The translations under genes and the position numbers were made by a program. Below, in pieces: positions 5,080-38,169 of a DNA stretch of 64,000 bases; the first letter of the stretch is position 1; every line of letters starts with the position of its first letter. Source of the stretch: Escherichia phage SUT_E1520; sequence record OQ885479; one strand, written 5' to 3'. The notes beneath the pieces are model-generated. The model did no database searches. It was not told the origin of the DNA and worked only from the letters and a program-made list of their open reading frames with translations.

Positions 5080-5182
5080 TCAGTGCAGAACACGGAGCTA
5101 GCAATTCGGAAGTGCTGACTCATGATAAGCTGCCTATGTACTTGCGAAGCGGTCGTGTCCAAGACTCGGACTCTTGCACTGA
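5080..5182 (+). ncRNA. structured non-coding element 1 of 3 in tandem (about 100 nt, long closing helix)
   Basis: No ORF; CAGTGCAGA pairs with TCTTGCACTG across about 90 nt. Confidence 0.3.
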
Positions 5183-5203
5183 AAACAATCAAACATTCTA
5201 GCG

Positions 5204-5316
5204 TGGTTGATGGGGAAACCAGCTTGGCGAGGGCAGAAGCTCGTTCGATTCGAGTGAAAGAATGGTTCTCGTAAGTCCGCACAAGTGATAACAGGTTCGA
5301 GTCCTGTCTAGAATGA
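5204..5316 (+). ncRNA. tRNA-like structured element 2 of 3 (about 112 nt): 8-bp acceptor-like helix, D-arm-like and canonical T-arm, no standard anticodon arm
   Basis: CATTCTAG / CTAGAATG closing helix; TGGTT-GATGGGGAA-ACCA; ACAGG-TTCGAGT-CCTGT. Confidence 0.35.
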
Positions 5317-5327
5317 CACTATAAAGT

Positions 5328-5438
5328 TTACTTATTATGTAGGTTCCGATAGATCGGCGGGTCTATTCTGGCACTTAAGAGAGGTCTCGCAAACTTCTTT
5401 GTCAGCCGTGGGGTTGGTAGCCTCCAGGTGGCCTACAC
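5328..5438 (+). ncRNA. structured non-coding element 3 of 3 (about 110 nt)
   Basis: TACTTATTATGTAGG pairs with CCTACACAATAAGTA; no ORF. Confidence 0.3.
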
Positions 5439-5464
5439 AATAAGTAAATTTATTAAAAATTCAT

Positions 5465-5493
5465 TTGCTATTATGCTTAATTCTCTGTATAAT
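5465..5493 (+). promoter_or_regulatory. T5-type early promoter
   Basis: TTGCTA-N17-TATAAT; leader ATAAAGTGTTGAGAAGG. Confidence 0.6.
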
Positions 5494-5525
5494 ATACCTT
5501 ATAAAGTGTTGAGAAGGAAAGCAAA

Positions 5526-5723
5526 ATGAAAAAAGTTTTACTGCTGTCTGTATTCCTACTTACTGGTTGTTTTAAACTTGACTCAACCATTAATAAAGAG
5601 TATGAATTTGCTAAAAATTTCTGTGGCGGAGAGAGTAATATAAAGAATTTCTACATATATAGTACAATTCCTAGTACCGTTTATTGTGTAGACGGACGAA
5701 TTATTAATATTCCTCCACAATAA
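5526..5723 (+). CDS. putative lipoprotein (signal peptide with lipobox LTGC)
   Basis: ORF track; N-terminus MKKVLLLSVFLLTGC. Confidence 0.5.
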   Translation: MKKVLLLSVFLLTGCFKLDSTINKEYEFAKNFCGGESNIKNFYIYSTIPSTVYCVDGRIINIPPQ

Positions 5724-27672: not shown

Positions 27673-27715
27673 ATTTCTAGGAGACATTTTTTGAAAACAC
27701 ATTTCCAGAAATTAC

Positions 27716-28316
27716 TGTCGGATTTGCACATTGTGTTTCTAGAAATTTATGGTCGGATTTGCACAATTGCCTAAGTTTTTAGGAACATATAATCTCTTGA
27801 AAATGGCAGCATTATTTCGGGCCGAAGGCCCATGATTGCCTGAGTTTTTAGAGCCACAGAAACTTTCACTTGTCAAGCTATTTTGCCCCATTTAGCTAAT
27901 AAGATTTTACTTTATCTGCACTAATCTCAAATTAACCCAAATCTTCTCAACTCTTCCCCAAAATCCCCGCAAATCAGGTGCTACGCACCAAACATGCGCC
28001 CCTCTCGCAGTTCCCTCAAATTTTTCTCGATCTCTCAACTTCTCCCCAAACTCTTACAATCACACACTCTCCAATCGAAGTCACAAAAATCTTGTCGGAT
28101 TCGCACAAATAAACCCATGTCGGATTTGCACATATTCTAGTTAATTCCACAGGATTGATGCGCAGCATCGGATTGCTGGAGTTTTTAGGAAAATTCATTG
28201 TCGGATCCGCACATTATAAAAATTTTTCGGGTCGGATTTGCACACTACCAAAAATTGTCGGATTCGCACATACACGCCCACGCGTAATCCATGGGGGCAA
28301 ATGTCGGATTTGCACA
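27716..28316 (+). repeat. iteron-like array: eight copies of the 15-mer TGTCGGATYYGCACA
   Basis: Copies near 27716, 27751, 28093, 28118, 28199, 28230, 28256 and 28302, irregularly spaced. Confidence 0.7.
27880..28080 (+). other. G-depleted, C/A-rich tract of about 200 bp on the plus strand
   Basis: Strong strand compositional asymmetry, almost no G. Confidence 0.6.
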
Positions 28317-28349
28317 AAAGCGCAGGGCAATTGCCCTGCTTGCCTGAAT

Positions 28350-28545
28350 ACGAATGATAATGAGAATCATTCTCATTTAAAAAGCGGAATGTGAATGATA
28401 ATAATTCGCATTTAAGAATGGAAGTGAGAATTATTCAGGAAGTGAAACGATTCTCATTTAAAAAGTGGAATGATTATTAGTTAGATAGTGAAATGCGAAT
28501 GATACTGATTCGTATTTAAGAATGGAAGTGAGAAACACTATTATT
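28350..28545 (+). repeat. tandem degenerate repeats carrying a Fur-box-like 19-bp perfect palindrome AATGAGAATCATTCTCATT
   Basis: Palindrome at 28359-28377; repeated GAATGATAAT... and ATTCGCATTTAAGAATGGAAGTGAGAA units. Confidence 0.6.
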
Positions 28546-28660
28546 TAAGTTATCCACAGACTTATCAACAGCACGATTTGACTTGACAAAATCCTAGCCA
28601 TTTTGAGGCGTTATCAACAGACTTATCAACAGCTTATCCTACTGTATAAATATACAGTAT
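28541..28660 (+). repeat. left arm of an imperfect inverted repeat of about 110 bp, with DnaA box TTATCCACA and LexA-like box CTGTATAAATATACAG
   Basis: Reverse complement of 32386-32500 aligns along most of its length; DnaA box at 28550-28558, LexA-like box at 28642-28657. Confidence 0.6.
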
Positions 28661-28915: not shown

Positions 28916-29110
28916 TTAGTCTGGTAGTCGATGCGTGATTTTTTCCTCCTCCCCGTAGGAATCCACCAAATACTGATAATAACCATCGTGATCATAAATC
29001 ACTTTATCATATTCGCCACGCTCGACCGCTTGCCGATTCTCCGGCGTATCTGGCACGTAAAAAACATCAACCATTGTACTGATCTTGGTTACAACTATTT
29101 TATTACTCAT
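28916..29110 (-). CDS. hypothetical protein (64 aa), last gene of the minus-strand operon
   Basis: ORF track; SD-like sequence upstream on the minus strand. Confidence 0.45.
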   Translation of the reverse strand: MSNKIVVTKISTMVDVFYVPDTPENRQAVERGEYDKVIYDHDGYYQYLVDSYGEEEKITHRLPD

Positions 29111-29211
29111 AATAACTCCCTAGTAAATATATTTTTGCCAATAGTGGCGAATGTTATCGCCACCAGCGGAATCATTAGCGGCCTTACTATTACCAACGAA
29201 AATATATAATC

Positions 29212-29571
29212 TCATTGCGCCACCTTTCGAAACGCTGTTTCAATACTATCCGCAGTGGATTGAATATATGCGCCTTTCATTATCAGGCGCTCGGTACATA
29301 CCTTGCGGAAAATATTAATAAAATCATCTTCATTTTCTGCAATTAATGCTTCACCCATAACCTGAACGTCACAAGATGCAAAGGTCAAAAATTGAAACGC
29401 TAGTTCACGGGCAACGACCGCATTAATTTTATAATGTGCCTTGCCCTCATAAATATTAATAACGCCCTTATAAGCTGGGGAAAGCTGATTTAAATAGTTT
29501 GCTAATAATGCTGGGCGGCAATTAGCAACAAAACGATTGCCTTCATAAATTATCATTTGCATAGCTCCCAA
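29212..29571 (-). CDS. hypothetical protein (TTG start per track; first ATG at 29562)
   Basis: ORF track. Confidence 0.5.
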   Translation of the reverse strand: MGAMQMIIYEGNRFVANCRPALLANYLNQLSPAYKGVINIYEGKAHYKINAVVARELAFQFLTFASCDVQVMGEALIAENEDDFINIFRKVCTERLIMKGAYIQSTADSIETAFRKVAQ

Positions 29572-29675
29572 ATAGTTCCGCCGATGATCATTAGCTGACT
29601 AATAATTATCAGAATAAAACCAATTGAAGGCAGGACGCCCCAAAAACGAAAAGCCGTTTTAATTTGCTGAATCAT
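29553..29675 (-). CDS. small membrane peptide (40 aa)
   Basis: Overlapping-coupled with its neighbours; single TM segment; below the track cutoff. Confidence 0.3.
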   Translation of the reverse strand: MIQQIKTAFRFWGVLPSIGFILIIISQLMIIGGTIWELCK

Positions 29676-29802
29676 TTGTTAGCCTCCCGATTAGATAGCC
29701 AGATAAAAGCATAAAGATCCCCAATGAAATGGGGTCATTTTTAAATAAGGTGGCGATAAAACCGCCAGCCATTGCAAGGATAATAACAATAACGCTTTTC
29801 AT
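29659..29802 (-). CDS. small membrane peptide (47 aa)
   Basis: ATGA overlap with the upstream stop; TM segment; below the track cutoff. Confidence 0.3.
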   Translation of the reverse strand: MKSVIVIILAMAGGFIATLFKNDPISLGIFMLLSGYLIGRLTNDSAN

Positions 29803-30011
29803 AGTACCCCACGAAACGCAGCGTAAAAGGTGGCAAAGTGTTTAACTGTTTCAGCTATCACGTTGCCGCGCTTATCAAATTTTTTCTCGGTAACACGAAA
29901 GGCATTTTTGTTACGTGCTACATATTCGATTTTACAATCTTCCCGCTCGAACGTGTTAACATCCACCAGCTTAAAGCCTTTCGAACGTGCAAGGGAAACG
30001 TTGCGGATCAT
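29799..30011 (-). CDS. hypothetical protein (70 aa)
   Basis: ORF track; SD AAGGAGA upstream. Confidence 0.45.
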   Translation of the reverse strand: MIRNVSLARSKGFKLVDVNTFEREDCKIEYVARNKNAFRVTEKKFDKRGNVIAETVKHFATFYAAFRGVL

Positions 30012-30013
30012 TT

Positions 30014-30163
30014 TTATTCTCCTTTACTAGTCATGCAGCCCAGCAGATAAGAAAACGCAGCAATGCCAGCGCCAATAATAACGGCGTGAACGCCAAAAGC
30101 TATTGCAAACAACGATAAAATAGCGCCCAAGATACCCGCCAGAATAGCTCGAAAAATAACCAT
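30014..30163 (-). CDS. small membrane peptide (49 aa)
   Basis: SD GGAGAAT upstream; TM segment; below the track cutoff. Confidence 0.3.
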   Translation of the reverse strand: MVIFRAILAGILGAILSLFAIAFGVHAVIIGAGIAAFSYLLGCMTSKGE

Positions 30164-30213
30164 TTTTTTTTATTCTCCTAGTCAGTGAGGGATATAATAT
30201 CCCCCGTTACTAA

Positions 30214-30444
30214 TTACATTAAAACAATTTTTGCAGCTTGTTTTTTAGTACAGTGTTCCGCTTTCAGCGTGTCCAGCAAAAAGCCCGCCGTTTGCTGATC
30301 GATTTTATCGGCGTTGTATAGTTCTTGGATGGTGTTATAAGTTTTAGCAATGCCGAACTCCTGCACCATTTCATGAATAATGGCGCGGTTAGATACCCAG
30401 CCTTGAGCGGTGAACAGATGAGTAGCAGAAGAGTAAGCAACCAT
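30214..30444 (-). CDS. hypothetical protein (76 aa)
   Basis: ORF track. Confidence 0.45.
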   Translation of the reverse strand: MVAYSSATHLFTAQGWVSNRAIIHEMVQEFGIAKTYNTIQELYNADKIDQQTAGFLLDTLKAEHCTKKQAAKIVLM

Positions 30445-30548
30445 TTTAAGCCTCCAAATTTTTGGGAAATTTTTAATCCACCGTTTTGGTGTAAAAGCAT
30501 TATAACAAAAAAGGCCACCATAAAAGGCGACCTTTACAAAACTTTACA

Positions 30549-31043
30549 TTAAACTACCTGTAAGGATTCAACATTGAAACATCGTTTTAATTCATCATGT
30601 AAAACAGCGTATTCCTCCCATCGGGTATTATCAGGAATATAAACAAGCTGTTTTAATCGATTTGCGTATATTACCGCTTTATTATCAATTATTTCGACGC
30701 CACCATATTTAATAATTAATTTCATGACGGAATTAATAGGATCGCCGCCGTTTACATATGTGCCGGATTTACTTAATTGATAATGATAAAGGCCAGCATA
30801 TACGTTTTCATTTTCATACCATTCGCCAGTTTCTTCGTCTTCATAGCCATCGCTACCAAAACGAGAAGCATTATCAATAGCCATTTCATGAGCGAAAGCG
30901 TCCAGATCCGTACCAGCAGGAACAAAGTATTCCTCGGTATTCCCTTCCCCGCAATAGCCAGTATGACAATCGACTAAAATGATCATATCATGTTTAGCCG
31001 TGCTCACTTCCCCTAGCGAGAAGCCGTATTTTTCCTCAGCCAT
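30549..31043 (-). CDS. hypothetical protein (164 aa)
   Basis: ORF track; SD AGGAGG upstream. Confidence 0.55.
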   Translation of the reverse strand: MAEEKYGFSLGEVSTAKHDMIILVDCHTGYCGEGNTEEYFVPAGTDLDAFAHEMAIDNASRFGSDGYEDEETGEWYENENVYAGLYHYQLSKSGTYVNGGDPINSVMKLIIKYGGVEIIDNKAVIYANRLKQLVYIPDNTRWEEYAVLHDELKRCFNVESLQVV

Positions 31044-31108
31044 TTATTAGCCTCCTATTAATTAACAAGGGAGTAGTAAAGCGGGGAAATAATCCCCGCT
31101 AAATATTA

Positions 31109-32119
31109 TTACTCGCTTTCGGTGTTAGTGGTAAAAGTAGAAATATCAATACCTTTCACCATTTCATCAATCATTTCAGCGATGTTAAAACTTTGCACCA
31201 TTTCCAGCATTGCCGCTTCCATAGCCGCCCCCGCTACCGCTTTCGCCTTTTGGTTAGTCGGTGCGTACTGGTCAACCGCTACACTCAGCAGGTTAGCGAT
31301 CACTACACGACCAATAGGTGTATCGATATAACCTTTGATCATGAATGGTGCTTTTTTAGCCGCTACTTTCGTAATTTGAGTTAATGCAATTTTACCCGCC
31401 TCCAGTTTTGCAGCATTTACAACAGCGGATTTATTGGCGGCAACGATGTTAGCAATCTTGGTCATGGTGTTTTTTCCTTTGTTTTCAGTAGTTTGAGTGT
31501 TAACGCTTTGAGTGTTAGAATTTACAGCATGGTTTTCTACGCTGTCAATAATCTGATCTTCATCTTTCCAGAAAGAAAAACCAGCGCTTTCTATATCCCC
31601 ATCATAAATATATGGGTATAGCTCCCGTGGTAACAAAAAATTACCGTCGCCATCAAAAGCCATTATACCGGTATATTGAGATCCGTCGTTATCCGGCTTA
31701 TGCCATCCAGCGGGTAAATACTTCCAGATAACATCTAAAAATCCCTCAATGCTAGAAAGTCCATTTATCAGATCAAGTCCAATAAGCTCAAAACTATTTA
31801 TATTAAATGATTGACGGCCTGAATTGCTATGATACGCAACAATATTATTACCCTGCGCAACAATAAAATCGGTATCCGGCCCCGCTCCCCTGCCTGTAAA
31901 GATATGGCAATCCCGATTATATAAAACTAGCGTTGCCCCTTGTCTATATAAGGGTAGAAAACTATCCATATCATAAGCGTCATAATCATCAAAAAAGTTT
32001 TGATGAATAGTTTCAATCTTGTTAATAAAATGTTTAATGCTGGTTGACTTGCTACCGTCTAGCAGGTTGCGCAATGCACCCTTTAATACGGTGGCATTAT
32101 CAGGTTTATACAGCCTCAT
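31109..32119 (-). CDS. hypothetical protein (336 aa), first gene of the minus-strand operon
   Basis: ORF track; SD GAGGAGG upstream. Confidence 0.6.
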   Translation of the reverse strand: MRLYKPDNATVLKGALRNLLDGSKSTSIKHFINKIETIHQNFFDDYDAYDMDSFLPLYRQGATLVLYNRDCHIFTGRGAGPDTDFIVAQGNNIVAYHSNSGRQSFNINSFELIGLDLINGLSSIEGFLDVIWKYLPAGWHKPDNDGSQYTGIMAFDGDGNFLLPRELYPYIYDGDIESAGFSFWKDEDQIIDSVENHAVNSNTQSVNTQTTENKGKNTMTKIANIVAANKSAVVNAAKLEAGKIALTQITKVAAKKAPFMIKGYIDTPIGRVVIANLLSVAVDQYAPTNQKAKAVAGAAMEAAMLEMVQSFNIAEMIDEMVKGIDISTFTTNTESE

Positions 32120-32385
32120 TTGTTAGGCCTCCTCGTTAATCGGTGAGTGAATGATAAAGGTAAATTTCTAGCATAGGCAAATATTATTTTACCTTTTTAT
32201 TTTCCTTGCCTAGCGCCTATTTTTATGATAACCGCGCAGCGGTGCAATAAAGAGCAAACCACGGCGAAGCCACCAGGCCGACGCATTGAGGCTTTACTTT
32301 AATATTACCTTACAGCGTTTAGCTCGTTAGAATGCGATTTAAGCCGCTTAAAATTGATTGCAGTTGTTAACACTACCTTTTTACC

Positions 32386-32500
32386 CTGTATAAATATACA
32401 GTAGGATAACCTGTGGATAAGTCTGTGTAAAAGTCCTTATATCGCCGCCTATCGTGTCAAGTCAAAAAGTGCTGTGGATAACTTTGTGTATAACTTAAAT
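32386..32500 (+). repeat. right arm of the inverted repeat, with LexA-like box and two TGTGGATAA DnaA boxes
   Basis: LexA-like box at 32386-32401; DnaA boxes at 32412-32420 and 32473-32481. Confidence 0.6.
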
Positions 32501-32830
32501 GATAGTGGTTCTCACTTAGCTAGATGATTTCTTATAGTTATTATTTCTCATTAATTTATATGTATATTATATATCATGAAATAGTTAGTTGGCTAATGAG
32601 ATTTTTCCGTGATTAATAGTCTGCTAATAATTCAGGTCGTTACAATCCACCAGCATGATTATCATTCTAGCAATTATTAGTCTGCTATCTTTCCGATGCA
32701 TACTAACAAATAAAAGTCAATTAATTTATTTCATAAAATAAGTAGTTATCCACTGGAAAATAAAAGTCAAGTGGATAACTAGGAAAATTTCATTTTTGCT
32801 TTTGGGGATAAGTTATCAACAAGGCTAGAA
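32500..32830 (+). other. AT-rich region with further DnaA-box-like 9-mers; origin-like or host-factor binding region
   Basis: TTATCCACT near 32746, GTGGATAAC near 32771, TTATCAACA near 32813; very AT-rich 32520-32720. Confidence 0.4.
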
Positions 32831-33225
32831 TGCGCCTAAAACGCTCCAGAACGCAATAAAGTTTTTAGCCATCCCATCATAAGGGGATAAGCCGTTTATC
32901 GTTACCACGAGCTTTTTAGATTTTGTCAAGTAGGGCAAAGCAAATATAAATGAAAAAATTACTTGCCTATTTGCTTTATTTTGTGGTATTCGCGCGCCCG
33001 TTTCTTTTAATTTTAGGCCGTCGCCGCACGGTGTCCGGTGAGTTTTACCTTTACATTTCTTTACAAAAATAAGGTTGCGCCATTTTCGGGAATCCCCTAT
33101 TATTTATCTCGTAGGGCGGCAATGACGAACTACACGGCGGGAAGTTTACCGCCACGCTCTTTAAAAATTGGGTACATCTTAAAGCCTATCGGCGGTAAAC
33201 TTATTCATTATAAGGAATCGACGAT

Positions 33226-33429
33226 ATGAAACAAACGCTTTTGATCACTGGCAAGCCTATTAAGGCACTAGATAGCAAAACAAAAAATTTGTTGACAGTA
33301 GCTCAAAGATCAGTAAGATATAGATTCACGCAGTACAAGAAAGGTCGCCAGCAAGGTCTGGAAATGATCTGGCGAAATATTATGATTGACCTAAAAGAAA
33401 ATCATAAAAAATTGCAAAAAATTGTTTGA
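33226..33429 (+). CDS. hypothetical basic protein (67 aa), flanked by a 25-bp inverted repeat
   Basis: ORF track; inverted repeat arms at 33169-33193 and 33437-33461. Confidence 0.3.
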   Translation: MKQTLLITGKPIKALDSKTKNLLTVAQRSVRYRFTQYKKGRQQGLEMIWRNIMIDLKENHKKLQKIV

Positions 33430-33659
33430 CAACCTAGCCGATAGGTTTTAAGATGTACCCAGTTCGATAAGAGCGATAACTTGATAAAATTTGACGGTCG
33501 GTGCTTACCATAATGCATCCCGCCCCCTAACGGGATATAGCGGCCTACGTGGAGTTCTTTAAAATTGATTATATTGGCGAGCGGATTGTTACTTATTACC
33601 TGCTGTTACTTTCTAGCAGGTAATGCGGAACAATCCCCAAATAACTAGGAGTTTATATT

Positions 33660-33911
33660 ATGCAAAACGTTATTACCGCGCCGAAAGTTGGTCAATCCGT
33701 CTTCATTCCTTTCGTTACTAAAACGGATGAATTAACCGGAAAGGCCGAACGTATTAAAGGTGCGGCGCTTATGCCGTTCGATACAATCGACGCGGTATAC
33801 GCTGAAAATGAACGTAGTAACAACGGCAAGCCCGTTTTTAGCGTTCGCGTTAAATCCGGCGATGTTGTAAAGGTTGTTCAACGCAACGAAAAATGGGAAG
33901 CTGTATTGTAA
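33660..33911 (+). CDS. pre-early protein (hypothetical)
   Basis: ORF track; SD TAGGAG; 10-bp-stem hairpin upstream at 33595-33624. Confidence 0.5.
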   Translation: MQNVITAPKVGQSVFIPFVTKTDELTGKAERIKGAALMPFDTIDAVYAENERSNNGKPVFSVRVKSGDVVKVVQRNEKWEAVL

Positions 33912-34007
33912 ATTAGTGTTAACTTTATATCCCCTTATTTCAGGGGGATATAACGATTAACATTAAGTTAATCTAATCCCTTAAATTAAACTAATAGGAG
34001 TTACATC

Positions 34008-34415
34008 ATGACTAACGCTAAAACCGCAAAATTCGCATGGAATGAAGAAAACACTCAGAAAGCTGTTTCCATGTATCAACAGTTAATTAATGAAAACGGT
34101 TTAGATTTCGCAAATAGCGACGGTTTAAAAGAGATTGCAAAAGCAGTGGGCGCGGCTTCTCCCGTATCCGTTCGGTCAAAATTGACCAGCGCAAAAGCAT
34201 ATCAAAAAAGCGATAAGCCTCGCAAAGTTGGCGGCGGTAGTTCAATCCGCAAAGCTCATTATGTACGCGTTATTGCAAAACACGCTATCGATTCCGGCAT
34301 TATCAAAGATGCCGATGATCTGGCAAGCCTTGAAAGTGCAAAACTTGAAACGCTGGACGCAGTAGCGCAATTGTTAGGCGTTGCCGATGAAGTAAAACAA
34401 GCCGCAGGCGAATAA
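34008..34415 (+). CDS. A2-like pre-early protein (putative DNA-binding)
   Basis: 135 aa, immediately upstream of A1; assignment by position and size only. Confidence 0.4.
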   Translation: MTNAKTAKFAWNEENTQKAVSMYQQLINENGLDFANSDGLKEIAKAVGAASPVSVRSKLTSAKAYQKSDKPRKVGGGSSIRKAHYVRVIAKHAIDSGIIKDADDLASLESAKLETLDAVAQLLGVADEVKQAAGE

Positions 34416-34507
34416 TAGTTATACCTTGCCCCCTTTTTTAGTGAGGGGGCAATAATATAACTGTTTAGCGATAGTTATTTTCTTCCCTTAAATCAGGAGT
34501 TTTTAAA

Positions 34508-34795: not shown

Positions 34796-36460
34796 ATGAT
34801 TATTTCCGCAGAAAAACAAACCGTTATCCTGAAAATGGCCGCTGACTTTAATTTCTATGGTAAACGTCTGCGCGCTACTAAACTGGAAGTCTGCGACGAT
34901 ATATCAAAAGCGGTCTACGATACAACGAAACACTCCACCGCCATTTGTGATTGGTTGGAAGCAAATAAACCAGCGAAACCGAAAGCGGCGAAAGTAGCAA
35001 AAGCCATTAAAAACGACGAGCGCCCAGAAGCGGCGGGGGTTGTTTCTAGCACGGTTGAACAGTGGGAAGTAAAACAAGGCAAACGCTTTATTATTACATC
35101 GATTCAGAATAATACTTTCCCGCATAAAAACTTTTTGGCCTCACTTGAACAATATGCCAAATTTATCGGCGCTGATTTGCTCGTTTCTAAGTATATTTAT
35201 AATAAAAACGGTTTTCAAAATGGGGAAGGTGCGGATGGAATCAAATATGATTCCGCGTTTGATAAATATATTTGCAGCAAAAACGTGTTTTTAAATAACC
35301 GCCGTTTCGCTTTCATGGCTGAAATTAATGTTTTGCCAACCGCAGATTATCCGCTTTCTGGATTCGCAGAAACTGCAACGGCTTTAAATATTGAAGGTCT
35401 GGCAATTGGTCACGCTAAAATCACCGCTGAAAGTGTGCCAGCTTTAAAAGGTGAAGTAGTGCGCCGTATGTATTCAACCGGAACGGCAACGCTCAAAAAC
35501 TACATTCAGCAGAAAGCAGGACAAAAGGCCGAGGCGCTGCATAACTTCGGTGCGCTTATTGTTGAGTTCGACGACGACGGGGAATTTTTTGTACGCCAGC
35601 TTGAAACGATGGACGAAAGCGGGGTGTTTTATGATCTGAACGTTTGCGCTACTCCTGCCGGATGCTATGAAACATCGGGGCATGTTTTAGGCTTGCAGTA
35701 TGGCGATATTCACGCCGAAAAATTAGATGATGATTGTGCCGTTGCGTCATGGGCTGGCGAGAATAGTTTGCTTGATATTCTTAAACCAAAATATCAGCTT
35801 ATTCATGACGTGCATGATTTTACATCGCGCAATCATCATAACCGTGCATCCGGTGTATTCCTAGCGAAACAGTATGCCGCCGGACGTGATAAAGTTCTGG
35901 ATGATCTTATCGATACGGGGCGCGTGCTGGAATCAATGGAACGTGATTTTAGTCAAACAATCATCGTAGAATCGAATCACGATTTGGCGCTATCCCGCTG
36001 GCTTGATGATCGTAATGCTAACATTAAAGACGATCCCGCCAACGCCGAACTATATCACCGCCTAAATGCTGCAATTTACGCGGCAATCGGTGAGCATGAC
36101 GATACTTTCAACGTGCTAGATTATGCGTTGCGCAAGGTTGCAGGTTGTGAGTTTAACGCCATTTTCCTAACCACTGACCAATCTTTCAAGATTGCAGGTA
36201 TTGAATGCGGCGTACACGGTCACAACGGCATTAACGGCAGCCGTGGCAACCCGAAACAATTTAAGAAATTGGGCAAGTTAAACACGGGGCATACGCATAC
36301 CGCCAGCATTTACGGCGGCGTATACACCGCTGGCGTAGCTGGTAGTCTGGATATGGGTTACAACGTTGGCGCGTCAAGCTGGACGCAGACGCATTTAATT
36401 ACCTATGCAAACGGTCAGCGCACTTTGATTGACTTTAAAAACGGTAAATTCTTTGCGTAA
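34796..36460 (+). CDS. A1: A1-like pre-early protein, calcineurin/Mre11-like metallophosphoesterase (probable DNase)
   Basis: 554 aa; motifs GDIHAE, HDFTSRNHHN and GHTHTAS. Confidence 0.7.
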   Translation: MIISAEKQTVILKMAADFNFYGKRLRATKLEVCDDISKAVYDTTKHSTAICDWLEANKPAKPKAAKVAKAIKNDERPEAAGVVSSTVEQWEVKQGKRFIITSIQNNTFPHKNFLASLEQYAKFIGADLLVSKYIYNKNGFQNGEGADGIKYDSAFDKYICSKNVFLNNRRFAFMAEINVLPTADYPLSGFAETATALNIEGLAIGHAKITAESVPALKGEVVRRMYSTGTATLKNYIQQKAGQKAEALHNFGALIVEFDDDGEFFVRQLETMDESGVFYDLNVCATPAGCYETSGHVLGLQYGDIHAEKLDDDCAVASWAGENSLLDILKPKYQLIHDVHDFTSRNHHNRASGVFLAKQYAAGRDKVLDDLIDTGRVLESMERDFSQTIIVESNHDLALSRWLDDRNANIKDDPANAELYHRLNAAIYAAIGEHDDTFNVLDYALRKVAGCEFNAIFLTTDQSFKIAGIECGVHGHNGINGSRGNPKQFKKLGKLNTGHTHTASIYGGVYTAGVAGSLDMGYNVGASSWTQTHLITYANGQRTLIDFKNGKFFA

Positions 36461-37283: not shown

Positions 37284-38018
37284 ATGAATAAAGCTATTAT
37301 GAATATTTCCCGTAATTTCCCGCATATTTCCCGCGTCATGATTTGGGATTTAGACGGCACTATCATTAATTCTTTCCATCGTGTAGCGCCTTGCTTTGAT
37401 AGTGAGGGCAATTTAGATTTAAATAAGTATAAAAATGAAGCCTGCAAACATCATTTAATAATGCAAGATACTTTATTGCCATTGGTTGAATATATGCGCC
37501 AATGTATGAATGATGCAAATACTTTAAACATTATTTGCACCGCTCGACTAATGAGCAAGTCGGACTATTATTATTTGCGTAAACAAGGGTTGCGCGGTCG
37601 TGGTGATAGTAATATCCGTGTATTTTCCCGCGATACACTACACAAATATTTTGAAGCTGATAAAGTTAGCGAGATATACCACAGCAAAGACGCCATTTAT
37701 AAATCGTATTATTTTGAATTATTTAAACAATTATATCCAAACGCTGACTTTACAATGATTGACGATCATAAAGGCGTGCTATCAGCGGCGGCATCATACG
37801 GATTTAAAACGCTGGACGCGCAAGCCATTAACGATATTCTATCAATCGGCGTTGCATTGATAGGTGAAACCTTTATCGATGAATCTCTCGATGATGATAA
37901 TGATTATCAGTTCCTAGCTGATCGTTTGAAATTATGTTGGGAAAGTATGACCGAGGAAGAACGCGCAGAATATAGTTGCAGCCCGCAACAATATATTGAG
38001 AAATTAAAAGTTGCGTAA
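37284..38018 (+). CDS. dmp: 5-prime-deoxyribonucleotidase, HAD-superfamily phosphatase
   Basis: 244 aa; HAD motif I DLDGT near the N-terminus and a later DD motif. Confidence 0.7.
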   Translation: MNKAIMNISRNFPHISRVMIWDLDGTIINSFHRVAPCFDSEGNLDLNKYKNEACKHHLIMQDTLLPLVEYMRQCMNDANTLNIICTARLMSKSDYYYLRKQGLRGRGDSNIRVFSRDTLHKYFEADKVSEIYHSKDAIYKSYYFELFKQLYPNADFTMIDDHKGVLSAAASYGFKTLDAQAINDILSIGVALIGETFIDESLDDDNDYQFLADRLKLCWESMTEEERAEYSCSPQQYIEKLKVA

Positions 38019-38082: not shown

Positions 38083-38100
38083 ACCGGGCGGTAATGAGAC
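38083..38100 (+). promoter_or_regulatory. third copy (one mismatch) of the Fur-box-like palindrome
   Basis: AATGAGACTCATTCTCAT between dmp and the small-membrane-protein operon. Confidence 0.45.
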
Positions 38101-38169
38101 TCATTCTCATCTGGGGAGCCACTGGACACACCTCCATGTGTAATCTTATGAAATTTGACAAAAGTCGAA

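What the first reader, a model, noticed from the sequence alone, without database searches (positions are those of the whole stretch)
32386..32830. Origin-like region: clustered DnaA boxes beside a very AT-rich stretch
At least five DnaA-box 9-mers (TGTGGATAA, TTATCCACT, GTGGATAAC and variants) flank a 200-bp segment of very high AT content (32520-32720), resembling a DnaA-dependent unwinding element. This could be a replication origin, a site that sequesters host DnaA, or part of the injection-pause mechanism.
Basis: partly seen in the sequence, partly recalled or inferred. Interest (0 to 1): 0.5.

Follow-up and report, generated by a model that had tools for sequence, protein, structure and literature searches.

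The report
Known T5 terminal-repeat DnaA-box module
The DnaA-box cluster is real and strongly conserved, but it is the already described non-coding repeat region in the terminal repeat of T5-like phages, and the evidence argues against it being the replication origin.

Summary
The window is a T5-like phage (Tequintavirus, 99.9% identical to Escherichia phage EC148), in reverse orientation to the T5 map. The finding lies in the 1.1-kb non-coding gap between the two divergent pre-early operons of the terminal repeat.

There are eight DnaA-type 9-mers in 445 bp, seven of them within one mismatch of TTATCCACA; simulations typically give 2. They flank a stretch of 28% GC.

The left four boxes are two tandem pairs with 3-bp gaps. 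They belong to a 132-bp module (32386-32517) that recurs inverted at 28526-28657. This is the IRC-spacer-IRD / IRD'-spacer-IRC' pair described by Wang (2005) and Davison (2015, 2020), who proposed a role in the injection stop. I found both copies in every one of 31 related contigs, and in Sugarlandvirus and Myunavirus phages.

The origin reading is disfavoured:
- The whole-genome GC-skew minimum is at about 53 kb.
- The local inflection matches a coding-strand switch.
- There are no GATC sites in the region.
- The AT-rich stretch varies in length and carries a homing-endonuclease gene in 9 of 22 relatives.
- The right-hand four boxes are absent from T5 itself.

One possibly new point: each module ends in a near-consensus LexA SOS box.

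Verdict: already known, and its function is still untested.

The parts
32386..32517 (-). 132-bp inverted-repeat module, equivalent to T5 IRC-spacer-IRD of Repeat Region 2. It carries four DnaA boxes in two tandem pairs.
   Evidence: Inverted repeat I1 with 28526-28657: 132 nt, 79% complementary. It is 88-96% conserved across 22 distinct relatives and present in all 31 contigs examined. It matches the description in 10.1101/866236.
32384..32403 (.). Near-consensus LexA (SOS) box at the inner end of the module: CCCTGTATAAATATACAGTA, with core CTGT-N8-ACAG at 32386-32401.
   Evidence: Three mismatches to TACTGTATATATATACAGTA. Apart from this site and its partner, the window has no site with 4 or fewer mismatches. 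The core is intact in 26 of 31 orthologues. LexA and SOS are not mentioned in 10.1101/866236.
32412..32432 (-). DnaA box pair a/b: TGTGGATAA gtc TGTGTAAAA, head to tail with a 3-bp gap.
   Evidence: Box a is the perfect consensus in 26 of 31 relatives. Box b alternates between TTTTACACA, TTATCCACA and TTTTGCACA, all of which fit TTWTNCACA.
32456..32465 (.). GTCAAGTCAA, a direct repeat within the spacer that is conserved in both arms.
   Evidence: The block 32455-32465 has lower entropy (0.38 bit) than the rest of the spacer (about 1 bit). Alignment.
32473..32493 (-). DnaA box pair c/d: TGTGGATAA ctt TGTGTATAA. It starts 61 bp after pair a/b.
   Evidence: Box d fits the consensus in most relatives. 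Box c is degenerate and is deleted in T5.
32494..32517 (.). Conserved outer end of the module: CTTAAATGATAGTGGTTCTCACTT.
   Evidence: Low column entropy of 0.36 bit, conserved in both arms and in phage My1.
32518..32720 (.). AT-rich variable segment (28% GC). It holds one copy of the variable-number repeat TAGTTATTATTT, a promoter-like site on the minus strand (32595 to 32566), and three copies of an ATTAGTCTGCTA-type motif.
   Evidence: Composition. Length variation and HNH-gene insertion in 9 of 22 relatives. Promoter-like site TAGCCA-18-TATAAT. Repeat family D7.
32745..32779 (.). Palindrome GTTATCCACT-N15-AGTGGATAAC. Its arms are DnaA-like 9-mers that differ from the consensus at position 9 (A to T).
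   Evidence: It is present only in one of two alternative versions of this segment. T5 and 10 other relatives carry an unrelated palindrome at the same place (GGTCTTGA...TCAAGACC in most of them).
32803..32821 (.). Back-to-back pair of DnaA-like 9-mers: TGGGGATAA g TTATCAACA.
   Evidence: It occurs in the same version-specific segment as the palindrome above and is absent from T5.
28526..28659 (+). Partner module, equivalent to T5 IRD'-spacer-IRC' of Repeat Region 3, the proposed injection-stop region. Boxes at 28550, 28562, 28611 and 28623. LexA-like box TACTGTATAAATATACAGTA at 28640-28659.
   Evidence: The LexA-like box matches the consensus at 19 of 20 positions.
31109..32119 (-). First gene of the minus-strand pre-early operon (336 aa, DUF7566). 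The operon lies between the two modules.
   Evidence: The annotation in relatives is 'hypothetical protein'.
33226..33429 (+). First annotated gene of the plus-strand pre-early operon (67 aa, DUF7416). A2 (34008-34415) and A1 (34796-36460) follow it.
   Evidence: PHROG names: A2 is 'DNA binding protein', A1 is 'DNA transfer protein'.

Best explanation

Its conserved core is a 132-bp protein-binding module. It consists of a LexA-type palindrome, a GGATAA half-box, two tandem DnaA boxes, a roughly 40-bp variable spacer, two more tandem DnaA boxes and a conserved tail. A second, inverted copy lies 3.7 kb away, next to the point where DNA transfer pauses. Together the two copies bracket the variable pre-early operon.

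Shown here: the boxes are real, improbable by chance, and conserved far better than the spacer between them across genera. The outer boxes are mostly the perfect consensus, and in the partner arm the inner ones are mostly one-mismatch variants.

[quoted passage not shown] The two bound copies would then act in cis on that DNA, anchoring, looping or pausing it as Davison proposed, or insulating and regulating the bracketed operon. They would not open an origin. The AT-rich stretch is variable promoter- and repeat-bearing DNA and a homing-endonuclease insertion site, not a conserved unwinding element.
For: - Identity and context: 99.9% identical to phage EC148 and conserved in 529 phage records. 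The flanking genes are A1, A2 and dmp on one side and the DUF7566 operon on the other.
- The 132-nt inverted repeat pair fits the published description: a 131-bp IRC-spacer-IRD, and DnaA boxes in pairs 3 bp apart.
- Box clustering: 7 boxes in 445 bp, against a typical simulated maximum of 2.
- Conservation: both modules are present in all 31 contigs, including relatives whose A2 protein is only 66% identical. They are also present in Sugarlandvirus and Myunavirus phages, where the spacer has diverged but the boxes remain. The module matches 533 phage records, usually at 2 or 4 places each.
- Column entropy is 0.2-0.5 bit in the boxes and about 1 bit in the spacer. In box b the most variable columns are the two degenerate positions of TTWTNCACA.
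- The start-to-start distance between the two box pairs is a constant 61 bp.
- Against an origin: the global skew minimum is at about 53 kb, there are no GATC sites, the AT-rich stretch is variable, and there is no similarity to E. coli chromosomes or plasmids.
Against: - No binding data exist. A 2023 paper on the T5 relative BF23 states that experimental studies of these sites are lacking.
- Many boxes carry C6-to-A or A7-to-C changes (TTATCAACA, TTATTAACA, TTATCCCCA). These fall outside the strict DnaA consensus yet are themselves conserved, which could point to a different, phage-encoded binding protein.
- This copy enters the cell about 3.7 kb before transfer stops, so a direct role in the stop is less obvious than for the partner copy.
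- Proteins bound to DNA already inside the cell do not obviously halt further entry.
- Electron microscopy reported multiple T5 origins, so a minor origin here is not excluded.
Confidence: 0.6

Rival explanations
1. DnaA-dependent replication origin. DnaA assembles on the boxes on both sides, melts the AT-rich stretch, and phage or host helicase is loaded there.
For: Eight DnaA-type boxes flank a 28% GC stretch. There is a local cumulative-skew minimum at the locus. From my own knowledge, the layout loosely resembles P1 oriR and other plasmid origins where DnaA boxes flank AT-rich DNA. T5 is reported to use multiple origins (cited in PMC3632103).
Against: - The global skew minimum is at about 53 kb, and the local dip coincides with a coding-strand switch, as do all other inflections.
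- There are no GATC sites, no AT-rich 13-mer repeats, no iterons and no adjacent initiator gene.
- The AT-rich stretch varies in length and is split by an HNH gene in 9 of 22 relatives. The right-hand boxes are absent in 11 of 22, including T5.
- The conserved unit is duplicated in inverted orientation 3.7 kb away, with no comparable 200-bp AT-rich stretch beside it.
- Literature places the origins mid-genome, and replication genes are not expressed while only this DNA is in the cell. T5 also encodes its own UL9-like candidate initiator, D2.
Confidence: 0.08
2. Transcriptional control element. DnaA, and LexA at the adjoining SOS-like box, act as repressors, roadblocks or insulators for the divergent pre-early promoters and for read-through out of the bracketed operon.
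For: The module lies between divergent operons, 200-330 bp upstream of a promoter-like site that sits about 30 bp upstream of the DUF7566 gene's start codon (TTGCCT-18-TATCAT, 32180 to 32151). It also lies downstream of another promoter-like site (32595 to 32566). A weak promoter-like site (TTTACA-17-TATCCT, 32431 to 32403) overlaps boxes a/b and abuts the LexA-like box. The partner copy lies just past the 3' end of the same operon. Pre-early transcription is known to be shut off actively.
Against: The overlapping promoter-like site is lost in relatives where box b is TTATCCACA. The two copies face transcription from the operon side in opposite orientations. The three mapped pre-early promoters are described as lying at hdi and upstream of gene 011, not at the boxes. 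I could not obtain their coordinates.
Confidence: 0.17
3. Host-DnaA sink. The boxes, 12 per terminal repeat in this phage, titrate DnaA away from oriC to stop host initiation, in the manner of the chromosomal datA locus.
For: There is a high local density of consensus boxes on the first DNA to enter the cell.
Against: T5 degrades host DNA within minutes, which makes initiation control redundant. A single incoming copy offers few sites compared with the cell's DnaA pool. A sink does not explain the fixed 61-bp pair spacing, the inverted duplication or the conserved non-box parts.
Confidence: 0.05
4. The 9-mers are sites for a phage-encoded protein, for example the A2 DNA-binding protein, and only resemble DnaA boxes.
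For: The variants TGTTRATAA and TGGGGATAA are recurrent and conserved although they lie outside TTWTNCACA. A conserved GGATAA half-box and a conserved tail accompany the boxes. A2 is annotated as DNA-binding and is needed to resume transfer.
Against: The commonest sequence at six of the eight box positions is the exact high-affinity DnaA consensus. In box b the variation sits mainly at the two positions DnaA tolerates. The same consensus persists across phages of Escherichia, Salmonella, Klebsiella and Pectobacterium.
Confidence: 0.1

Closest known systems
T5 terminal-repeat Repeat Region 2 (IRC-spacer-IRD) and its partner IRD'-spacer-IRC' in the injection-stop region (Heusterspreute 1987; Wang 2005; Davison 2015 and bioRxiv 10.1101/866236)
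   Same: The genomic position is the same: between the A2/hdi operon and the opposite pre-early operon. So are the 131-132-bp inverted duplication, the four boxes per copy in pairs 3 bp apart, and the conserved GTCAAGTCAA in the spacer.
   Different: This phage has all four boxes intact, whereas T5 lost one to a small deletion. It lacks the HNH gene that separates Repeat Regions 1 and 2 in T5. It also carries four extra DnaA-like 9-mers in the Repeat Region 1 part that T5 lacks.
E. coli oriC
   Same: A cluster of strong and weak DnaA boxes lies next to AT-rich DNA.
   Different: There are no GATC sites, no 13-mer repeats, and a 12-bp box period in simple tandem pairs. The AT-rich part is not conserved. 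There is no sequence similarity and no global skew minimum. The oriC features used for this comparison come from my own knowledge.
Plasmid and phage theta-type origins with flanking DnaA boxes (for example P1 oriR, pSC101, F); from my own knowledge
   Same: Tandem DnaA boxes lie on either side of an AT-rich segment.
   Different: There are no iterons and no Rep gene alongside. There is no similarity to 72,556 plasmid records. The right-hand boxes are dispensable in many relatives.
datA and DARS DnaA-binding loci of E. coli; from my own knowledge
   Same: These are non-origin clusters of DnaA boxes that act through DnaA binding rather than through unwinding.
   Different: The element is phage-borne, duplicated in inverted orientation and tied to a LexA-like palindrome. 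Any dependence on IHF or effect on the DnaA nucleotide state could not be tested here.
LexA SOS boxes (CTG-N10-CAG; PMC2994835)
   Same: The palindromes at 28640-28659 and 32384-32403 match the 20-mer consensus at 19 and 17 of 20 positions, with the CTGT/ACAG cores intact.
   Different: They are not positioned over a conserved promoter. They sit in a virulent phage's non-coding repeat, and binding is untested.

Membership tests
T5-type IRC-spacer-IRD module (Repeat Region 2 of the terminal repeat) | Lies in the non-coding gap between the A2-side and opposite pre-early operons, inside the terminal repeat | tested here: met
   Gene order and annotated 'Left Repeat' in relatives. Flanking proteins identified.
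T5-type IRC-spacer-IRD module (Repeat Region 2 of the terminal repeat) | An inverted copy of about 131 bp lies near the right end of the repeat | tested here: met
   Arms 28526-28657 and 32386-32517, 132 nt, 79% complementary.
T5-type IRC-spacer-IRD module (Repeat Region 2 of the terminal repeat) | Four DnaA or DnaA-like boxes per copy, in two pairs separated by 3 bp | tested here: met
   32412/32424 and 32473/32485; partner copy 28550/28562 and 28611/28623.
T5-type IRC-spacer-IRD module (Repeat Region 2 of the terminal repeat) | Conserved across T5-like phages | tested here: met
   Found in 31 of 31 contigs, in 533 phage records, and in Sugarlandvirus and Myunavirus phages.
DnaA-dependent replication origin | Cluster of DnaA boxes | tested here: met
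DnaA-dependent replication origin | Conserved AT-rich unwinding element at fixed spacing from the boxes, usually with short AT-rich repeats | tested here: not met
   The AT-rich stretch is present, but it varies in length, is split by an HNH gene in 9 of 22 relatives, and has no AT-rich 13-mer repeat family.
DnaA-dependent replication origin | Genome-wide strand-skew switch at the locus that gene orientation does not explain | tested here: not met
   The global minimum is at about 53 kb. The local dip coincides with a switch of coding strand.
DnaA-dependent replication origin | GATC clustering, as in enterobacterial oriC-type origins | tested here: not met
   There are 0 GATC sites in 32386-32830 and 206 in the window.
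DnaA-dependent replication origin | Replication initiates there in vivo | not testable with these tools
   Literature cited in 10.1101/866236 places the origins near the genome centre.
DnaA-binding site (any function) | Sequence fits TTWTNCACA, and the variation follows DnaA's tolerance | tested here: inconclusive
   Boxes a, b and d of this copy fit in most relatives. Many partner-copy boxes carry changes at positions 6 or 7, outside the consensus.
DnaA-binding site (any function) | DnaA protein binds | not testable with these tools
   No experimental study was found.
LexA SOS box | CTGT-N8-ACAG palindrome with an AT-rich centre, close to TACTGTATATATATACAGTA | tested here: met
   1 and 3 mismatches out of 20. 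The core is intact in 26/31 and 28/30 orthologous arms.
LexA SOS box | Overlaps a promoter that it represses, and LexA binds | tested here: inconclusive
   Only a weak, non-conserved promoter-like site abuts the box. Binding is not testable here.

The most novel reading that the evidence does not exclude
The two inverted modules are composite landing pads for two abundant host regulators. A near-consensus LexA SOS box directly abuts the tandem DnaA boxes, and I found no mention of the LexA box in the T5 literature I could search. Host proteins bound at both copies would bridge them into a loop of about 3.7 kb around the variable pre-early operon. This loop would set up the paused state of the first-transferred DNA, or insulate that operon, so that host DNA-damage and replication regulators are wired into T5's two-step entry.
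Probability: 0.2. Interest if true: 0.6.

Novelty: already known. Interest (0 to 1): 0.25.

Why it matters
How T5 stops DNA transfer after 8% of its genome and then restarts has been an open question for about 60 years. These conserved box modules are the leading candidate cis elements, and nobody has tested them.

It also adds a few usable details for anyone designing the decisive experiments:
- which boxes are conserved across all T5-like phages and which are version-specific;
- the constant 61-bp spacing between the two box pairs;
- the adjoining LexA-type box.

Tried and rejected
- Rfam scan of 31900-33500: only sub-threshold chance hits.
- ORF scan of the gap: nothing credible between 32120 and 32950.
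- BLAST of the finding against all complete E. coli genomes and 72,556 plasmids: no match, so this is not a captured oriC or plasmid origin.
- Concerted evolution between the two arms: rejected. Orthologous arms are 80-96% identical and paralogous arms 72-81%.
- Promoter scan: 10 sites against 5.3 ± 2.5 expected, which is not decisive. The site overlapping boxes a/b is not conserved.
- Coordinates of the mapped pre-early promoter P11: not given in the paper or in its held supplement.
- Bourguignon et al. 1976, the electron-microscopy mapping of T5 origins: not held, so it is cited only second-hand.
- Coverage data for the T5 relative Bas33: the paper mentions bidirectional replication but gives no origin position.
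- Inspection by eye for DnaA-trio-like trinucleotide repeats next to box d: none seen.
- Literature search for LexA or SOS boxes in T5: nothing found.

Full report
**What the window is.** Megablast of 31000-34500 gives 99.9% identity to Escherichia phage EC148 (Tequintavirus, Demerecviridae) and matches in 529 phage records. The annotation of relatives shows that the window runs in the reverse orientation to the T5 map. It also shows that the finding lies inside the long terminal repeat. On the plus-strand side are a 67-aa gene, A2, A1 and the 5'-deoxynucleotidase gene. On the minus-strand side is an operon that starts with a 336-aa gene. The gap 32120-33225 has no credible ORF before 32950.

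**Checking the observation.** Seven 9-mers within one mismatch of TTATCCACA lie in 32386-32830, and an eighth (TTTTACACA) fits the relaxed consensus TTWTNCACA.
- In 300 first-order Markov simulations of the window, the densest 445-bp stretch held 2 boxes in 216 cases and never more than 5.
- With the local composition of the gap, the mean is 0.26 per 1106 bp and the maximum 3 in 5000 simulations, against 7 observed.
- The stretch 32520-32720 is 27.9% GC against 38.7% overall. That is in the lowest 0.7% of 200-bp windows but not unique.

**Anatomy.** The left four boxes all lie on the minus strand, as two head-to-tail pairs with 3-bp gaps (32412/32424 and 32473/32485), with 61 bp between pair starts. 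They sit in a 132-nt element (32386-32517) that recurs inverted at 28526-28657 with 79% complementarity. The partner has boxes at 28550, 28562, 28611 and 28623. The two copies bracket the whole minus-strand pre-early operon (28916-32119).

The right four boxes are arranged differently. One pair forms a palindrome, GTTATCCACT-N15-AGTGGATAAC (32745-32779). The other is a back-to-back pair, TGGGGATAA-g-TTATCAACA (32803-32821). None of these four fits TTWTNCACA strictly.

**It is a described element.** Davison's preprint (10.1101/866236) describes three non-coding repeat regions in the T5 terminal repeat.
- It describes a 131-bp IRC-spacer-IRD in Repeat Region 2 that is the inverted copy of IRD'-spacer-IRC' in Repeat Region 3, the candidate injection-stop signal.
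- It describes eight DnaA boxes 'always in pairs separated by 3 bp'. The first of these were noted in 1987.
- It proposes that membrane-bound DnaA holds these boxes and so pauses DNA transfer.
- It argues against a replication role, because electron microscopy places the origins mid-genome and the replication genes have not yet entered the cell.

Later papers repeat this description and state that experimental tests are lacking.

**Comparative analysis.** I fetched 40 loci from viral contigs by their A2 protein and aligned 22 distinct versions of the gap.
- The whole gap is 70-100% conserved, and the module 88-96%.
- Both modules are present in all 31 contigs, including relatives whose A2 is only 66% identical. 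They are also present in a Klebsiella Sugarlandvirus and in Pectobacterium phage My1. In the A2-66% relatives, the Klebsiella phage and My1 the spacer has diverged while the boxes, the terminal palindrome and the outer tail persist.
- Column entropy is 0.2-0.5 bit in the boxes and about 1 bit in the spacer.
- Box a is the perfect consensus in 26 of 31 relatives. Box b switches among TTTTACACA, TTATCCACA and TTTTGCACA, all inside TTWTNCACA. In the partner arm the outer boxes are mostly perfect, and the inner ones are mostly TTAT(C/T)AACA, outside the strict consensus.
- Orthologous arms (80-96% identical) are more alike than paralogous arms (72-81%), so the arms do not homogenise each other.

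By contrast, the segment carrying the right-hand four boxes exists in two unrelated versions. T5 and ten others have a different palindrome there and no DnaA-like 9-mers.

The AT-rich stretch also varies. It carries a variable-number repeat (TAGTTATTATTT, one to several copies). In 9 of 22 relatives an HNH endonuclease gene is inserted there, always together with the T5-type version of the neighbouring segment.

**Origin tests.**
- I assembled the EC148 genome and computed its cumulative GC skew. The global minimum is at about 53 kb, at a divergent junction of early operons. The finding (EC148 5167-5611) sits at a small dip.
- Every inflection (about 5, 11, 53, 81 and 106 kb) coincides with a change of coding strand.
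- There are no GATC sites in the finding and no AT-rich short repeats.
- There is no similarity to E. coli chromosomes or plasmids.
- T5 encodes a UL9-like helicase, D2, which has been proposed as its initiator.

Together with the variable AT-rich stretch and the dispensable right-hand boxes, these results make a conserved DnaA-opened origin unlikely. A minor origin cannot be excluded without replication mapping.

**Something extra.** The 16-bp palindrome at the inner end of each module is a near-consensus LexA SOS box.
- TACTGTATAAATATACAGTA at 28640-28659 matches TACTGTATATATATACAGTA at 19 of 20 positions.
- CCCTGTATAAATATACAGTA at 32384-32403 matches at 17 of 20 positions.
- No other site in the window has 4 or fewer mismatches.
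- The CTGT-N8-ACAG core is intact in 26/31 and 28/30 orthologous arms. The consensus CTG-N10-CAG is given in PMC2994835.

Davison's preprint does not mention LexA or SOS, and a literature search found nothing linking T5 to LexA boxes. This is sequence resemblance only. Binding is untested, and I could not read the older subscription literature.

**Mechanism.** The best-supported reading is that the module is a protein-bound cis element of the first-transferred DNA. It is most likely occupied by host DnaA, with strong outer boxes nucleating weaker inner ones, and possibly by LexA. It would act with its inverted partner to anchor, loop or pause that DNA, or to insulate the operon between the copies.

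The steps that are shown are the anatomy, the non-randomness, the conservation pattern and the absence of origin hallmarks. Protein occupancy and its functional consequence are inferred.

The rivals are a transcriptional operator or roadblock, recognition by a phage protein, a DnaA sink, and an origin. They are listed with the tests that would refute each.

**Verdict.** The element itself is already known, so interest is low. What remains of interest is the unresolved function and the LexA-type box.

Noticed in passing
window 28640-28659 and 32384-32403: Near-consensus LexA SOS boxes (19/20 and 17/20 matches to TACTGTATATATATACAGTA) sit at the inner end of both inverted modules and are conserved in most relatives. 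I found no mention of them in the T5 literature I could search.
   Followed up: partly
window 32386-32401 and 28642-28657; loci L002-L042: The centre of this 16-bp palindrome is AA or TT in different phages and arms. These are reverse complements of one another, and AT or TA never occurs. This looks like repeated flipping of the palindrome centre rather than stepwise mutation.
   Followed up: no
window 28356-28374, 37890-37914, 38090-38108: Fur-box-like sequences, with 2-4 mismatches to GATAATGATAATCATTATC, lie in the repeat region next to the injection-stop module and near the left end of the terminal repeat. Hits within 5 mismatches number 21, against 5.4 expected. This is intriguing because T5's receptor FhuA is Fur-regulated (from my own knowledge).
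   Followed up: partly
window 32720-32835; loci L005-L031: This segment exists in two unrelated versions among relatives. The T5-type version is linked to the HNH endonuclease gene inserted next to it: 9 of its 11 carriers have the gene, against 0 of 12 for the other version. This suggests co-conversion by the homing endonuclease.
   Followed up: partly
window 32535-32548; loci L002-L004, L030: A variable-number tandem repeat of a TAGTTATTATTT-type unit: one copy here, three or more in some relatives.
   Followed up: no
window 28779, 28825, 29591, 32585, 38069 (plus one-mismatch copies at 32613, 32674 and 28913): The palindromic motif TTAG-N4-CTAA recurs in the terminal repeat, mostly in its non-coding DNA. 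It occurs 7 times in the window against 2.65 expected, and 5 of those are in the repeat. It may be a site for a dimeric protein.
   Followed up: partly
window 32950-33072 (+): A small conserved ORF of 40 aa, hydrophobic (MKKLLAYLLYFVVFARPFLLILGRRR...). It matches phrog_17446 (E 3e-14) and is not annotated in EC148.
   Followed up: partly
window 33155-33193 and 33437-33475: A 39-nt inverted repeat (85% complementary) brackets the 67-aa DUF7416 gene. It is probably the IRA/IRA' pair of T5 Repeat Region 1. The region 33060-33225 is 94-100% conserved across relatives.
   Followed up: no
window 27709-28323: Seven or more copies of GTCGGATTTGCACA-type direct repeats lie just beyond the partner module. 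They are probably Davison's DRD repeats.
   Followed up: no
EC148 genome about 53.4-53.75 kb (outside the window's finding): The global cumulative GC-skew minimum of the genome lies at a divergent junction between early operons (PhoH-like gene / anaerobic ribonucleotide reductase). This agrees with the mid-genome origin reported from electron microscopy. There is no DnaA-box cluster there.
   Followed up: partly
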